DNA from: Promethearchaeota archaeon
GTDB lineage: Archaea; Asgardarchaeota; Odinarchaeia; Odinarchaeales; JBHLKK01
Direction of reading: 5' to 3'
Length of the DNA: 32,000 nt
NCBI GenBank assembly: GCA_048939465.1
Contig: JBHLPL010000001.1
Coordinates: 30,001-62,000 of the forward strand
This document shows positions 19,348 to 25,131 of the stretch, in pieces; within the stretch, counting starts at the first letter, position 1, and each line of letters starts with the position of its first letter. The notes below the pieces were generated by a model. It ran no database searches and was not told the DNA's origin. It saw nothing but the letters and a program-made list of their open reading frames with translations. The position numbers were made by a program, and so were the translations under genes.

Positions 19348-20064
19348 TCACTTCTTCATCATGATTGCAATCGGCACGCTTGCCTCGCGCCATTTGGCAT
19401 ACTTCCCCTCGTATTCGATCTGAATCTCGTGCCGTCCATGATCCCCGAGTACAATCAATAGAGTTCCAGGTATGGCTTGCTTAAAGAGAGACAGAATCCA
19501 GTTATCCGTACGTGTAATTAATTTCTGGGCTATTTCTTCTGGTGGCTGAGTGCTGTATTTTTGATACATGGCCTCAAAATCCAGAAAGTGGAGCCAAATG
19601 AAGTCCACCCTGTTAATCACTTTTATCGCTTCAATATACGTTCTCATGTCATCCTCGGCTGCTTTTGCTTTGGTTTTTCCCATGAACATTACTAAATCCT
19701 CTGCCCTCCCGATCATGGTAACGTTTTTCCTGCTCTTAGCCAAGAAATCCAACAAATGGAACTTCTTCTTTGAGGCACTTCCGTAGACTATCTCGTTTAA
19801 GACATTGAACGTATGAGGGTCTTCTGTATTTAATACCAGTATCGCCTCTGAGGTTTTTATCAAAAACTTGGGCTTATAATATGTACATTCGAAAAGTCCA
19901 AAGTTGTCGAAGATGGCCAATATTACATGGTCTGATCTGAATTCATCTATTCCCGTAATGGGTGGAGGGATTTTCTTTGGAGGTTGCAGTCCTAGCAAAT
20001 GGGATAGAGTAGCGGGAATTTGTGTCATGTTCCCTTCAAACGTAGGTAATTCCTCTTTGGCCAT
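19348..20064 (-). CDS. Compact alkaline-phosphatase-superfamily protein (NPP/PglZ-like core, one degenerate metal site)
   Basis: IPATLSHLLG, VILAIFDNFG, PHTFNVLNEIVYG (register of NPP P.KTFPN..SIVTG), LIVLGDHG. Confidence 0.7.
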   Translation of the reverse strand: MAKEELPTFEGNMTQIPATLSHLLGLQPPKKIPPPITGIDEFRSDHVILAIFDNFGLFECTYYKPKFLIKTSEAILVLNTEDPHTFNVLNEIVYGSASKKKFHLLDFLAKSRKNVTMIGRAEDLVMFMGKTKAKAAEDDMRTYIEAIKVINRVDFIWLHFLDFEAMYQKYSTQPPEEIAQKLITRTDNWILSLFKQAIPGTLLIVLGDHGRHEIQIEYEGKYAKWREASVPIAIMMKK

Positions 20065-21961: not shown

Positions 21962-23689
21962 CTATATGGTTTTTCCGAGCTCTTCAAACCCGATTCTTTC
22001 CTTGAAAAACTCGCCAAAAAGCTTGCCTAGATCTTCTATTTTGTTTCGCAACTGCTGCCAGCTATCTCGATTTCTTATCGTTACCGTATCATCCTCCAGA
22101 GTTTGATAGTCTACCGTTACTGCTACTGGAGTCCCGATTTCATCCGACCTGGCATATCTACGTCCGATGCTTCCAGACACATCCAATTCTGCCCTAAATC
22201 CTTCTTCAAGTAACATGTTATAGATGTCTTGTGCGACTTCGGGGAGTTTGTCTCTTTCCAATAGAGGAAATACTGCAATCTGTATTGGCGTAATGGCCGG
22301 AGGAAGCCTCAATATGATCCTCTTCTCTCTCTCAGAGTAAGCACATTCCAAAGCCGAATATACGAGTCTATCCGCCCCAAATGAGGGTTCTATGACGTGT
22401 GGAATGAATCTGGAACCAGATGCCTTCTCCGTTCTCTCATCAAAAGTTAAGAGTTCAGAACCTACGCGGTTTTCTCCTATTAAATAAAAACCGTCCTCTC
22501 TTACAGATTTCTGGACAATCTCGGGATCACTTCCTTTCAGAGAAGAAAGAATCTCTCCTGTTGCGTTACCGAACTTCTCTCTTATCGCCTTTACGTGTGG
22601 CTTAATTATGGTTCTCTTTACAATCTTAGGCTGTTCGTATTGTTTGAAAGCACGAAGATCGGTTCCACTAAATTTCATATGTCTGCCTAGGTCCCAGTCA
22701 GTCCTGTAAGCGTGTCCCGCTACCTCTGACCAACCAAATCTCTCCAAAAGAACTTGATGGTCTATAGTCTGTTTGGAATAATGCGCTCTTTCCCATGGAA
22801 GTTGCTCCCTAAATCGCTGTTTCTCTGGAGGGACACCAAGACTTGAAACGAAAGACTTTGATATAACTAGAAAATAAGCTATCCACTCACTGACAACTAC
22901 TCCCCTTTTAACAGCTTCTCTTGCTGTAATGACTTCTGTATCGCCTTCCTTTTGCTGGGCATCCGACGTCAGAATAGCCAGTTCCTCATTCTCTACATCA
23001 ACTAACCTAGCACATGAAGCCAACTCGCTCGGATCAATGAAGACTTCAACTTCCATAATGGTGAACTCACGAAGGCGGATTACCCCCTTTCTGGGTGAAA
23101 TTTCGTTTCTAAACGTACGACCAATCTGAGCAATACCTAGAGGCAGTTGTTCACGCTTTGCACTAAATATGCGCTTGAAGTCTACGAACATTCCCTGAGC
23201 TGCTTCCGGTCTAGCGTAACCAACATTCCCTCCGTACGGGCCAATTGTCGTTCTAAACATCAGATTGAATAGTTCAACTTTGCCCAGAGATCCACCGCAA
23301 TCCGGGCAGGTAATGTTATTCTCTTTTATCAAACTATCGAGTTCTTCTGTGGTAAGCCCTTCAACGATCTTACCTATAGCGTTCTCGACCAAATGATCTG
23401 CTCTATACTGTTTCTTGCAATCCAGGCAGCCAACCATTGGGTCCGTGAAGTGATCTGAATGTCCGCTTGCCTTGAAAACCACTTGAGGCATAATTATGGG
23501 AGAATCTATCTCCACAAACTCTTGTTTAGTTATAAACCACTCACGCCACTTATCTTCCACATTCCTTTTGAGTATGGCTCCGATCGGTCCATATGTTACG
23601 AATCCACTCAATCCGCCATATATCTCGAAACTTGGCCAAAGTATACCGCGTCTTCTACAAAGCTCCATGACTTTCTCGTATTTATCCAA
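21962..23689 (-). CDS. glyS: Glycyl-tRNA synthetase (homodimeric, archaeal/eukaryotic type)
   Basis: LCRRRG..PSFEIYGG, ASGHSDHFTDP, FNLMF, RPEAAQGMF, FRNEISPRKGVIRLREF, AHYS, HVIEPSFGADR, IGRRYARSDEIGTP. Start TTG 23689 or GTG 23698. Confidence 0.97.
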   Translation of the reverse strand: MDKYEKVMELCRRRGILWPSFEIYGGLSGFVTYGPIGAILKRNVEDKWREWFITKQEFVEIDSPIIMPQVVFKASGHSDHFTDPMVGCLDCKKQYRADHLVENAIGKIVEGLTTEELDSLIKENNITCPDCGGSLGKVELFNLMFRTTIGPYGGNVGYARPEAAQGMFVDFKRIFSAKREQLPLGIAQIGRTFRNEISPRKGVIRLREFTIMEVEVFIDPSELASCARLVDVENEELAILTSDAQQKEGDTEVITAREAVKRGVVVSEWIAYFLVISKSFVSSLGVPPEKQRFREQLPWERAHYSKQTIDHQVLLERFGWSEVAGHAYRTDWDLGRHMKFSGTDLRAFKQYEQPKIVKRTIIKPHVKAIREKFGNATGEILSSLKGSDPEIVQKSVREDGFYLIGENRVGSELLTFDERTEKASGSRFIPHVIEPSFGADRLVYSALECAYSEREKRIILRLPPAITPIQIAVFPLLERDKLPEVAQDIYNMLLEEGFRAELDVSGSIGRRYARSDEIGTPVAVTVDYQTLEDDTVTIRNRDSWQQLRNKIEDLGKLFGEFFKERIGFEELGKTI

Positions 23690-23991
23690 CGTCTTCACAT
23701 TCCTGGCCGTCTTTATCCTGCAAAGAAATTCAGCCAGCAGGGATGGCGACAGACTACACTGAGTTAAATATGATTCTGGATATTAAATTTTGGGTAAAGA
23801 GACAAGAATCGAACTCCGTTAGTTTTTTCGACGGAAAACCCCTCCGCGGAAGCACGTGGGCAGAATCATCCATTTTCTGTCTCATATTCTAAACGTTAGC
23901 TAAACCTTATTCATAGTAACAATTGAGACAAATCAAGAAAGATTTTTGAATGTCCGGTAATTTAAATATTAGAGCCACTGAGGTGTTATGG

Positions 23992-25116
23992 ATGCAAGTC
24001 TCGGCACAAAGGTTAGAGAGCATCAGGAGAATAATGACCAGAGAAGGAATAGATGTCTTGTTTTCTACAAAAACAGAAAACATATTCTACCTAGCTGGAT
24101 TTGCCCCCTCAATAGTACCCTCTCTCGCGATCATCGTACCCGTGGATAATGAGGCAACTCTAATAGCCCCCTCTAATGTGCTGGCCCTAGCAGATGAGCC
24201 CTCAAAAATCAAAAGCATAAGACCCTACTTTCTGCATCCGACAGAAGGTGAAAGTGAAAGAAAGAGACCGGGCTTTCTTGATACTATTAAAACTGTACTG
24301 GGTGAAAACGGTCTGGAAAAAGGAATCATCGGGTTAGAATATGACGATATCTCGCTTTCTGTTTTTAATAGATTGAAGGATACACTGCCCGATGCTGGTT
24401 TCAAAGACTCATCCCCTCTAATTTGGGAAATGAGAATGATCAAAGAAGAATCTGAGCTCGAAACGATGTCTAAGACTATAGAGGTCGCTGAAATCGGATT
24501 AAGGACTGCCATCGAGATCATACAACCGGGTATTACAGAACTTGAAGTTGCTCTGGAGCTCCGGAATACAATGATCAGAGCCGGTGCCTCAAGAGACTTG
24601 TGCCTAGGCAGCGTGACATCTGGTCCACGCGCAGGTTCTCCCCGTGCGGCCACAGAGTCTAGAAAGATCGAGAAAGATGAGTTTGTGGTTATTAATGTCT
24701 GCATAATGTTTGACAATTACTGTGGACATGTAGCACGCACGATTTTCACAGGTACACCCAGAAAGGAGTGTAGAACACTCTTCAACGCAGCAAAGAACGT
24801 ACTAAACGTCGCTTTGAAAGAAGCCAGACCTGGAACTACTGCCGGCGATCTTACTGTCGCAGTCTGCAAGAGGATAAGTAAACTGGGGTATATTGACTAT
24901 CACAATTATCCGATAGGCTATGGTGTTGGCTTGAATCCACGTGAACCTCCGATCCTCGAGACTGGTGATAATACACTTCTTCGCCCGGGAATGGTCTTGC
25001 ACGTATATTCTAATATTTACATTCCTGAAGTATGGGGAATCAAGATTGGAGGACAGATACTTGTTGCTGAAGGAGAGTCGAAGATTATGGAGAAACTGCC
25101 CTTGGAGATGATTTGA
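23992..25116 (+). CDS. M24/Xaa-Pro peptidase-fold protein lacking metal ligands (probable pseudo-enzyme)
   Basis: Creatinase-N domain plus pita-bread domain (MRMIKEESE, PGITELEVA, PGMVL..., IYIP), but the active-site D/D/H/E/E positions read N/H/Y/Y/G. SD GAGGTG-TTATGG-ATG. Confidence 0.85.
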   Translation: MQVSAQRLESIRRIMTREGIDVLFSTKTENIFYLAGFAPSIVPSLAIIVPVDNEATLIAPSNVLALADEPSKIKSIRPYFLHPTEGESERKRPGFLDTIKTVLGENGLEKGIIGLEYDDISLSVFNRLKDTLPDAGFKDSSPLIWEMRMIKEESELETMSKTIEVAEIGLRTAIEIIQPGITELEVALELRNTMIRAGASRDLCLGSVTSGPRAGSPRAATESRKIEKDEFVVINVCIMFDNYCGHVARTIFTGTPRKECRTLFNAAKNVLNVALKEARPGTTAGDLTVAVCKRISKLGYIDYHNYPIGYGVGLNPREPPILETGDNTLLRPGMVLHVYSNIYIPEVWGIKIGGQILVAEGESKIMEKLPLEMI

Positions 25117-25131
25117 TTTGGAGGTTTGAGA

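What the first reader, a model, noticed from the sequence alone, without database searches (positions are those of the whole stretch)
23992..25116. Catalytically dead M24 peptidase fold: a possible archaeal counterpart of Spt16-N/Ebp1-type pseudo-peptidases
Aligned by eye with archaeal prolidase, all five metal ligands are replaced: D to N (VVINV), D to H (CGHVART), H to Y (IGYGVG), E to Y (HVYSN), E to G (KIGGQ). Both substrate His residues are Arg (SPRAA, NPREP), which also removes the creatinase catalytic His. The full two-domain scaffold is intact with a good SD, so it looks selected rather than decaying. Eukaryotes use dead M24 folds as the histone-binding FACT Spt16 N-domain and ribosome-binding Ebp1/Arx1. 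A binding or scaffold role here is inference, and homology to these would need a tree.
Basis: partly seen in the sequence, partly recalled or inferred. Interest (0 to 1): 0.65.

Follow-up and report, generated by a model that had tools for sequence, protein, structure and literature searches.

The report
Asgard-wide dead prolidase paralogue
This gene encodes a well-preserved protein shaped like a proline-cutting peptidase but lacking every residue needed to hold its metals; it belongs to an old gene family, unnamed in the literature I could search, that many Asgard archaea keep beside a working copy, and no test run here links it specifically to the eukaryotic histone chaperone Spt16.

Summary
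ORF 23992-25116(+) encodes a 374-aa, two-domain PepQ-type M24B protein. All five metal ligands (N235, H246, Y310, Y339, G353) and both substrate histidines (R218, R317) are replaced.

It is neither private nor decaying.
- It sits in a single, well-supported clade of about 105 of 400 Asgard genomes (9-10 of 33 GTDB families; source names Thor, Freyr/Sigyn, Baldr, Odin, "Hod").
- Every member checked lacks at least one ligand, in lineage-specific ways.
- The members of this clade in three other families (f6, f15, f16) sit beside an intact paralogue, and this genome has an intact but divergent one.
- dN/dS is 0.03-0.12.
- The old pocket varies freely, while a new conserved stripe (residues 125-141 and 167-175) has appeared.

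Best reading: a non-catalytic binding protein (pseudo-peptidase) with an unknown partner.

Elsewhere the gene sits in a conserved block with tRNA-Arg genes or ArgRS, an RHH-wHTH regulator, a DUF89 phosphatase and TIM. Here it lies between GlyRS and phosphoglycolate phosphatase.

No special affinity to Spt16-N appeared in sequence profiles, Pfam or structure. Ebp1 kinship is excluded. A tree including Spt16-N could not be built.

The scan had already found this clade on other DNA (e1-5552164) and read it the same way.

The parts
23992..25116 (+). Dead PepQ-type M24B gene (374 aa, P0001)
   Evidence: ORF and translation; Pfam Creatinase_N plus Peptidase_M24; best solved relative is Pfu prolidase 1pv9; AF2 pLDDT 95; dN/dS 0.10-0.12 against G001.
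23980..23985 (+). Shine-Dalgarno-like GAGGTG, 6 nt before the ATG; a TTTAAATA TATA-like box lies at 23961-23968
   Evidence: Read directly from the sequence; function not tested. The two signals are hard to reconcile: a TATA box about 28 nt before the ATG would give a leaderless mRNA.
24010..24441 (+). N-terminal Creatinase_N domain (res 7-150)
   Evidence: Pfam PF01321, E 9.6e-20; no match to PF14826 (FACT-Spt16_Nlob) even at E<=10.
24229..24273 (+). Clade-specific loop insertion (about res 80-94; res 84-89 are absent in 86-98% of canonical relatives)
   Evidence: Comparison of 53 clade and 81 canonical sequences; lowest-confidence block of the model (pLDDT 75).
24364..24414 (+). New conserved stripe, part 1 (F125, K129, P133, G136, F137, D139, S141)
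   Evidence: Entropy 0.3-0.7 bits in the dead clade against 2.1-3.2 bits in canonical PepQs.
24490..24516 (+). New conserved stripe, part 2 on the first helix of the C-domain (E167, G169, R171, A173, E175)
   Evidence: Entropy 0-0.14 bits in the clade against 1.9-3.35 bits in canonical relatives; R171 is in 100% of clade members and 15% of canonical ones.
24463..25068 (+). Pita-bread Peptidase_M24 domain (res 158-359) with the dead site. Codons: R218 24643-24645, N235 24694-24696, H246 24727-24729, Y310 24919-24921, R317 24940-24942, Y339 25006-25008, G353 25048-25050
   Evidence: Alignment to 1pv9; alignments A1/A2; column extraction.
25126..25827 (+). Archaeal phosphoglycolate phosphatase (HAD-IIB), 9-15 nt downstream, probably co-transcribed. 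The likelier start is GTG 25132, after GGAGG at 25120-25124
   Evidence: NCBIfam PRK01158, 246 bits against a cut-off of 198; Pfam Hydrolase_3; sequence; same order in G001.
21962..23698 (-). Glycine-tRNA ligase, divergent upstream neighbour (293-nt spacer)
   Evidence: TIGR00389, 634 bits; same arrangement in G001.
28277..29512 (-). HDAC-family deacetylase, the only neighbour here that also recurs near the dead M24 in other Asgard families
   Evidence: Pfam Hist_deacetyl, E 1e-89; cluster c11 within 8 kb in window, L058, L050, L045, L048, L049 and L044.

Best explanation
The gene encodes a non-catalytic descendant of an archaeal Xaa-Pro dipeptidase (PepQ, M24B). An old duplication inside Asgard archaea gave a second copy. 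That copy lost the two-metal centre and the substrate histidines. It kept the two-domain pita-bread fold and gained a new conserved surface stripe at the junction of the two domains (res 125-141 and 167-175). It most likely works by binding something rather than cutting it. Candidates are a peptide or small ligand in the remodelled cleft, or a protein partner on the new stripe; one option is its active PepQ paralogue, since prolidases are dimers. Shown: loss of all catalytic residues, intact fold, purifying selection, a single origin of the clade, coexistence with intact paralogues, a free-varying pocket, and the new conserved stripe. Inferred: that the role is binding, and what the partner is. 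In this genus it is probably co-transcribed with phosphoglycolate phosphatase.
For: All seven catalytic or substrate residues are replaced. The fold is intact (pLDDT 95.3; Z 40-42 to prolidases). dN/dS is 0.095-0.12 against G001, and 0.03-0.12 for unsaturated pairs in other families. Identity to G001 is 76%, at the low end of the 71-92% range of its neighbours. The 14 to 24 sampled members form one clade: FastTree 99, IQ-TREE C20 97, and still 98 after removing 48 trait columns. High-scoring members occur in about 105 of 400 Asgard genomes and 9-10 of 33 families. Source names are Thor, Freyr/Sigyn, Baldr, Odin and 'Hod'. The 18 pocket positions have mean entropy 2.17 bits in the clade against 0.22 in canonical PepQs. 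In the clade this is higher than the rest of the C-domain (1.76 bits, P=0.035). New clade-only conserved positions lie outside the pocket. Families f6, f15 and f16 also keep an intact DDHEE/HH copy. G000 has an intact 402-aa M24 and a MetAP2.
Against: No binding partner is shown. Thor members keep a fairly constant D-E-N-H-A set across many genera, which could still hold one metal, so parts of the clade may be enzymes. Members in f6 and f16 lack only one or two ligands. The gene was cleanly deleted in some Thor genera with the surrounding gene order kept, so it is dispensable. Within this genus the seven sites are not significantly more variable than the rest of the protein (4 of 7 against 34% overall, P=0.18). 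I could not get model coordinates, so the stripe's surface exposure is inferred from secondary structure only.
Confidence: 0.55

Rival explanations
1. It is still an enzyme, with new chemistry on a non-peptide small molecule, as happened in creatinase, ectoine hydrolase DoeA and DMSP lyase DddP. It might be tied to the metabolite damage-control phosphatase that follows it: phosphoglycolate phosphatase here, DUF89/ARMT1 plus TIM elsewhere.
For: A phosphatase gene follows within 9-15 nt here. In f15 and f16 a DUF89 damage-control phosphatase and TIM follow on the same strand. Creatinase and DoeA superpose as well as prolidases do (Z 41-42). Thor members conserve D-E-N-H-A.
Against: Pocket residues vary freely across the clade, and even within this genus: H/Q/K at 246, Y/C at 310, R/Y at 218, R/H/C at 317. 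No alternative set of conserved polar pocket residues appears. The His kept by creatinase-like rows is Y/F/L/R here. DoeA and creatinase models score far below their cut-offs. The clade is separate from the creatinase-like rows.
Confidence: 0.2
2. It is a regulatory or scaffolding subunit that forms a heterodimer with the active PepQ paralogue. This is a specific version of the binding reading.
For: Genomes checked in f6, f15 and f16 carry both a dead and an intact copy. Prolidases are homodimers (established knowledge). Pseudopeptidases often regulate their active cousins (PMC11266112).
Against: In G000 the only intact two-domain M24 is a divergent 402-aa protein on a long branch. No co-localisation of the two paralogues was seen. 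No interface could be modelled with these tools.
Confidence: 0.15
3. It is the archaeal stock of the Spt16 N-terminal domain and acts on histones or chromatin.
For: The clade profile matches human SPT16 NTD at E 2e-22 (83 bits), above human prolidase and Icp55. Spt16-N is likewise a two-lobe dead M24B. An HDAC-family gene recurs nearby.
Against: Spt16-N ranks 38th, far below prolidases (288 bits). Its higher rank compared with the canonical profile is what any target lacking active-site motifs would show; creatinase behaves the same way. No PF14826 match. Structure Z of 34-35 equals aminopeptidase P. No fused longer forms were found (weak evidence). No member was found (at E<=1e-104) in 23 of 33 families, including the largest, f22. 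Synteny points to tRNA-Arg, ArgRS and sugar-phosphate genes rather than histones.
Confidence: 0.04
4. It is a decaying gene with no function.
For: All catalytic residues are gone. The gene was lost in some Thor genera.
Against: It is full-length with no stops in about 100 genomes (one TAG case). dN/dS is 0.03-0.12. New conserved positions have appeared. The fold is predicted with confidence.
Confidence: 0.02

Closest known systems
Archaeal Xaa-Pro dipeptidase PepQ / prolidase (M24B; P. furiosus 1pv9, P. horikoshii 1wy2; NCBIfam NF040821)
   Same: Same two-domain architecture and length. Best sequence match (E 2e-41; clade profile 288 bits) and best structural match (Z 40-42, rmsd 1.7-1.9). The same glycine, proline and core residues are conserved.
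   Different: All five Co/Mn ligands and both substrate histidines are replaced. It scores 169 bits against the 630-bit cut-off. It has a 6-residue loop insert and a new conserved stripe. It is a separate paralogous clade.
Spt16 N-terminal domain of FACT (PDB 5e5b, 5ce6, 5umt)
   Same: A two-lobe M24B-type fold with a dead metal site, used for binding. Detectable by the clade profile (E 2e-22) and by structure (Z 34-35 over about 356 residues).
   Different: Spt16-N is 50-60 residues larger, shares 12-16% identity, and is fused to the rest of Spt16. Its N-lobe is Pfam PF14826, which is not matched here. It is no closer than aminopeptidase P.
Ebp1/PA2G4 and Arx1 (MetAP2-type M24A pseudo-peptidases at the ribosomal tunnel exit)
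   Same: A pita-bread fold with lost ligands, used as a binding platform (PMC11266112).
   Different: They are single-domain MetAP2 relatives. The EBP1 model TIGR00495 scores 15.5 bits against a cut-off of 430. This protein has the Creatinase_N lobe and groups with PepQ. The genome has its own intact MetAP2.
Creatinase and ectoine hydrolase DoeA (metal-free or altered M24B enzymes)
   Same: Same two-domain fold, equally good superposition (Z 41-42), and loss of the classic ligand set.
   Different: Creatinase-like rows keep the His at the position of R218 and carry an insert after GxxIG. Their models score 95-111 bits against cut-offs of 575-613. They form a separate clade.

Membership tests
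M24B Xaa-Pro dipeptidase (PepQ/prolidase) | Two-domain fold: Creatinase_N lobe plus pita-bread Peptidase_M24 domain | tested here: met
   Pfam; AF2 pLDDT 95; Z 40-42 to prolidases.
M24B Xaa-Pro dipeptidase (PepQ/prolidase) | Five metal ligands D, D, H, E, E | tested here: not met
   N235, H246, Y310, Y339, G353; these columns are invariant in 81 canonical relatives.
M24B Xaa-Pro dipeptidase (PepQ/prolidase) | Two conserved substrate/proton-shuttle histidines | tested here: not met
   R218 and R317.
M24B Xaa-Pro dipeptidase (PepQ/prolidase) | Score over the curated equivalog cut-off (NF040821) | tested here: not met
   169 bits against a cut-off of 630.
Creatinase / ectoine hydrolase DoeA | Catalytic His at the PH motif, and a family model score over the cut-off | tested here: not met
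   R218 here and Y/F/L/R across the clade, while creatinase-like rows keep H. DoeA models score 111 and 95 bits against cut-offs of 575 and 613.
Creatinase / ectoine hydrolase DoeA | Branching inside that family | tested here: not met
   The dead clade is its own branch with 97-98% support; the creatinase-like rows form a separate branch with 98% support.
Spt16 N-terminal domain (FACT) | N-lobe of Pfam family FACT-Spt16_Nlob (PF14826) | tested here: not met
   No match at E<=10 in P0001, P0002, P0004 or any of 14 clade members; all match Creatinase_N.
Spt16 N-terminal domain (FACT) | Fusion to the Spt16 dimerisation, middle and C-terminal domains | tested here: not met
   It is a stand-alone 374-aa ORF. 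A search of longer proteins found none, which the tool itself calls weak evidence.
Spt16 N-terminal domain (FACT) | Closer in structure or sequence to Spt16-N than to active M24B enzymes | tested here: not met
   Z 34-35 against 40-42 for prolidases; 83 bits against 288 bits.
Spt16 N-terminal domain (FACT) | Sister placement in a tree with eukaryotic Spt16 | not testable with these tools
   No tool gave eukaryotic Spt16 sequences as usable ids.
Ebp1/Arx1 (MetAP2-like pseudo-peptidases) | MetAP2-type single pita-bread domain and family model | tested here: not met
   TIGR00495 scores 15.5 bits against a cut-off of 430. The protein has a Creatinase_N lobe.
Pseudoenzyme (generic) | Catalytic residues lost, but fold and purifying selection kept across species | tested here: met
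Pseudoenzyme (generic) | Demonstrated lack of activity and a demonstrated binding role | not testable with these tools
   Needs biochemistry.

The most novel reading that the evidence does not exclude
The Asgard dead-prolidase clade is the prokaryotic lineage from which the FACT Spt16 N-terminal histone-binding domain was recruited. That would make it a previously unrecognised eukaryotic signature protein precursor.
Probability: 0.04. Interest if true: 0.85.

Novelty: new variant of a known kind. Interest (0 to 1): 0.5.

Why it matters
Dead peptidases reused as binding modules are known in eukaryotes (Spt16-N, Ebp1, Arx1). I found no paper describing a conserved one in archaea.

This work shows an old, selected, Asgard-specific family of them, kept beside the working enzyme. 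It has a new conserved surface and an unusually stable gene neighbourhood: tRNA-Arg or ArgRS, an RHH-wHTH regulator, a damage-control phosphatase and TIM.

That gives a concrete target for expression, binding and structure work. It also gives a defined set of sequences for testing the origin of the Spt16 N-domain.

All database names seen for clade members call them active enzymes ('M24 family metallopeptidase', 'Xaa-Pro peptidase family protein', 'aminopeptidase P family protein', or simply 'hypothetical protein'). That would mislead metabolic reconstructions of peptide use in Asgard archaea.

Tried and rejected
DNA for orthologues came from the genome search and the fetch from genomes instead.
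- A search for fused or longer forms found nothing. This is weak evidence.
- A tree with Spt16-N, Ebp1 and eukaryotic prolidases could not be built, because no usable sequence ids were available.
- The canonical-profile control (A4) did not list Spt16 in its top 60. Its exact score is unknown (below 93 bits), so the comparison with 83 bits under the clade profile is only a bound.
- Within-genus excess variability at the seven sites was not significant (P=0.18; 18-site pocket P=0.24).
- The idea that the RHH-wHTH neighbour is an obligate partner was rejected. It was not found with the single f16 query or the A5 profile in this genus, nor with the profile in f5, f6, f14 and f29. It persists in Thor genera that deleted the M24 gene.
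- The idea that this is the decayed sole PepQ orthologue was rejected. The sister genus g2 has a canonical PepQ at a different locus, and the clade is a separate paralogue.
- The ESM Atlas gave only generic M24 clusters.
- Model coordinates are not exposed to scripts, so neither pocket electrostatics nor the stripe's exposure could be computed.

Full report
**Observation.** The ORF at 23992-25116(+) encodes 374 residues. A GAGGTG lies 6 nt before the ATG. Orthologues start at the same M-Q-V/I. Pfam finds Creatinase_N (res 7-150) and Peptidase_M24 (res 158-359).

The closest solved proteins by sequence are the Pyrococcus prolidases 1pv9 and 1wy2 (E 2e-41 and 1e-40). No NCBIfam equivalog cut-off is reached; PepQ_Arch scores 169 bits against 630. 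AlphaFold2 with a 124-row alignment gives pLDDT 95.3. The model superposes on prolidases, creatinases and DoeA at Z 40-42.

**Organism and paralogues.** The window lies on contig C138 of a 1.96-Mb Asgard assembly that is 91% complete. Close homologues are labelled 'Candidatus Hodarchaeota archaeon' by NCBI. A profilin gene lies 0.8 kb downstream. In the GTDB grouping the genome shares class and order with only one other genus, which has 1.3-1.4-Mb genomes.

The genome has four M24 genes:
- an intact 402-aa two-domain protein with the D, D, H, E, E ligand set;
- an intact MetAP2;
- a contig-truncated copy of an 'x-E-H-E-S' subtype;
- the dead copy studied here.

**Not private, and not the decayed sole orthologue.** Four to five close orthologues (73-78% identity) share the loss but not the replacement residues. 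Their pattern is N, then H/Q/K, then Y/C, then Y, then G/V, with substrate positions R/Y and R/H/C.

An exhaustive HMMER search of 1.84 billion representatives found that every hit scoring above the first canonical protein also has a degenerate ligand set. These are the full-length top hits P0019, P0020, P0021, P0022, P0024 and P0025; P0023 is a 147-aa fragment without these columns. Below that first canonical hit (P0026), further degenerate relatives (P0027, P0028, P0031, P0048) are interleaved with canonical ones.

Trees place them with the window's protein in one clade:
- FastTree, 14 rows, support 99;
- IQ-TREE LG+C20, 24 rows, SH-aLRT 97;
- SH-aLRT 98 after deleting 48 columns that carry the trait itself, namely the pocket, the insert and the new motif.

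A profile of the clade searched in 400 Asgard genomes gives a bimodal score distribution. About 105 genomes score 348-553 bits, in families f1, f4, f5, f6, f14, f15, f16, f29 and f31, plus a divergent f30 member. Almost all remaining matches score at most 292 bits; the one higher score (306 bits, G326) is a contig-truncated copy in f31.

The lower-scoring matches that I fetched are canonical DDHEE/HH enzymes, apart from three 'T-E-H-E-S' proteins, one DDHEE/VH row (L072) and the f30 member. They include second copies in f6, f15 and f16 genomes that also hold the dead copy. The sister genus g2 has only a canonical PepQ, at another locus.

**Selection.**
- dN/dS against the same-genus orthologue is 0.095 (NG86) to 0.12 (ML), with dS of 1.2-1.4.
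- Unsaturated pairs in other families give 0.03-0.12.
- Identity to G001 is 76%. This is at the low end of the 71-92% seen for 15 neighbouring genes, but within that range.

**What is conserved and what is not.** In 53 clade members, the 18 pocket and second-shell positions that are nearly invariant in 81 canonical enzymes (mean entropy 0.22 bits) have a mean entropy of 2.17 bits. The rest of the C-domain in the clade has 1.76 bits (P=0.035).

Ligand sets differ by lineage:

| Lineage | Ligand set |
|---|---|
| This genus | N-H/Q-Y-Y-G |
| f16 | N-D/N-H-E-E |
| f4 | D/N-D-H-K-E |
| f14 | S-N-N/S-E-G |
| f15 | V-R-S/H-R/K-E |
| Most Thor | D-E-N-H-A |

In contrast, some positions that vary freely in canonical enzymes (1.9-3.5 bits) are nearly fixed in the clade (0-0.7 bits). 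These are F125, K129, P133, G136, F137, D139 and S141; E167, G169, R171, A173 and E175; and E189 and A197. A 6-residue loop insert at res 84-89 is also shared. By the model's secondary structure, these positions lie on the last helix and strand of the N-lobe and on the first helix of the C-lobe. This is the pattern expected when a fold is kept, its old site is released from constraint, and a new surface comes under constraint. Whether the stripe is exposed could not be computed.

**Context.** In this genus the gene is divergent from GlyRS. It is followed 9-15 nt later by an archaeal phosphoglycolate phosphatase. The same order holds in G001.

I examined 20 loci from nine families plus the window. 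Recurring neighbours are:
- a 160-220-aa protein with an N-terminal ribbon-helix-helix domain and a C-terminal winged-helix domain (c4);
- a DUF89/ARMT1 damage-control phosphatase;
- triosephosphate isomerase;
- NIF3;
- FBP aldolase/phosphatase;
- ArgRS;
- an HDAC-family gene.

The c4 gene lies within 0.17-2.8 kb of the dead M24 in about 60 genomes of families f4, f15, f16, f30 and f31. It is divergent in f4, f15 and f16, and co-directional in f30 and Thor (coordinates). It was not found in any family lacking the clade, except one weaker hit in f3.

Every tRNA that ARAGORN finds within about 2.5 kb of the gene, outside f4, is a tRNA-Arg (anticodon CCG or GCG); a tRNA-Arg(TCG) also lies 2.2 kb from the gene in the Baldr-type locus (f5). 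This holds in f5, f14, f15, f29, f30 and f31. In the Thor loci sampled with 1.5-kb flanks, 19 of 22 have at least one tRNA-Arg; in most of them a tRNA-Arg(CCG)/tRNA-Arg(GCG) pair sits on the same strand just upstream of the gene, 106 bp away in L024. ArgRS lies nearby in f4, f15, f16 and f29. Loci of canonical copies, sampled with shorter flanks, have no tRNA.

Thor genera g72 and g83 kept the whole gene order, including c4 and both tRNA-Arg genes, but deleted the M24 gene. The window's genus lacks c4 with both queries, and its DUF89 gene lies on another contig. So the neighbourhood marks a common ancestral locus, and possibly a shared regulon. It does not mark an obligate complex. Its meaning for function, whether arginine/tRNA-linked or sugar-phosphate damage control, is unexplained.

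**Spt16 and Ebp1.**
- The clade profile hits human SPT16 NTD at 83 bits (E 2e-22), ranked 38th. Prolidases score 288 bits, creatinase 130 and E. coli APP 100.
- Under a matched canonical profile, SPT16 is not in the top 60 (below 93 bits). Active enzymes score 60-140 bits higher than under the clade profile, while creatinase changes by only 17 bits. The improved rank of SPT16 is therefore what any target lacking active-site motifs would show.
- No clade member matches PF14826.
- Spt16-N superposes at Z 34-35 (rmsd 3.0-3.5, 12-16% identity), level with aminopeptidase P.
- Ebp1 is MetAP2-type and is excluded.
- I could not place eukaryotic sequences in a tree, so direct ancestry is unlikely but not formally excluded.

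**Literature and earlier scan notes.** Six full-text searches found no description of an archaeal M24 pseudo-peptidase. Reading the 2024 pseudopeptidase review found none either; for M24 it lists only EBP1. An earlier follow-up in this scan (e1-5552164), on other DNA, reached the same reading: an ancient dead peptidase in at least ten Asgard families, with a convergent likeness to Spt16. My tests were run independently of that note and agree with it.

**Verdict.** This is a real, selected pseudo-peptidase and a member of an Asgard-specific paralogue clade of PepQ. A binding role is the most likely function (0.55). A new enzymatic role is the main rival (0.2). Spt16 ancestry is improbable (about 0.04).

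Noticed in passing
L024:879-1394 and equivalents in L021-L041, L052-L060; also L044, L046, L047, L049, L051, L067: tRNA-Arg(CCG) and tRNA-Arg(GCG) genes flank or directly precede the dead-M24 gene in six Asgard families. ArgRS lies nearby in four families. Apart from a tRNA-Gly(TCC) beside c4 in f4, no other tRNA type lies within about 2.5 kb of the gene. This is an unexplained, very stable linkage.
   Followed up: partly
L050:9383-9886 (+), L043:9301-9792 (+), L054:9815-10360 (-); alignment A5: An unannotated protein of about 165 aa with an N-terminal ribbon-helix-helix, a coiled coil, a winged helix and a conserved GKRxAWW tail. It is adjacent to the dead M24 in about 60 genomes and was found in only 6 of 33 Asgard families: five that carry the clade, plus f3.
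   Followed up: partly
L002:3-743 (G000:C75), L012, L013, L063, L066, L075; P0011, P0033, P0036, P0052, P0074, P0103, P0108: A second non-canonical M24B subtype with the ligand pattern (S/T/V/I/A)-E-H-E-S and both substrate histidines kept. It forms its own clade and is present in this genome, truncated at a contig end. It may be a different, possibly single-metal, enzyme.
   Followed up: no
L085:6113-7262 and L086:5337-7230: Thor genera g72 and g83 keep the whole syntenic block (TIM, DUF89, NIF3, RHH-wHTH, two tRNA-Arg, LbH, thioredoxins, helicase) but have precisely lost the dead-M24 gene.
   Followed up: yes
P0029, P0094, P0100, P0153 (one named Geothermarchaeales): A small group of archaeal PepQ-like proteins near the Asgard clade in the FastTree. 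Three lack only the fourth ligand (D-D-H-V/N/A-E); the fourth, P0029, reads D-D-R-G-D. This looks like another independent partial loss outside Asgard.
   Followed up: no
window 25120-25135: The phosphoglycolate phosphatase gene probably starts at GTG 25132, 7 nt after GGAGG at 25120-25124, rather than at the TTG 25126 given by the mechanical ORF list.
   Followed up: partly
L042 and L043, between the M24 and DUF89 genes: In family f4 a gene of 1,213-1,312 aa with unknown function is inserted between the dead M24 and the DUF89-TIM pair.
   Followed up: no
window 19348-20064 (-): A 238-aa ORF with no Pfam match and only a weak likeness to the C-terminal part of phosphopentomutase (NCBIfam E 4e-6, far below cut-off). 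It is 89% identical in G001.
   Followed up: no
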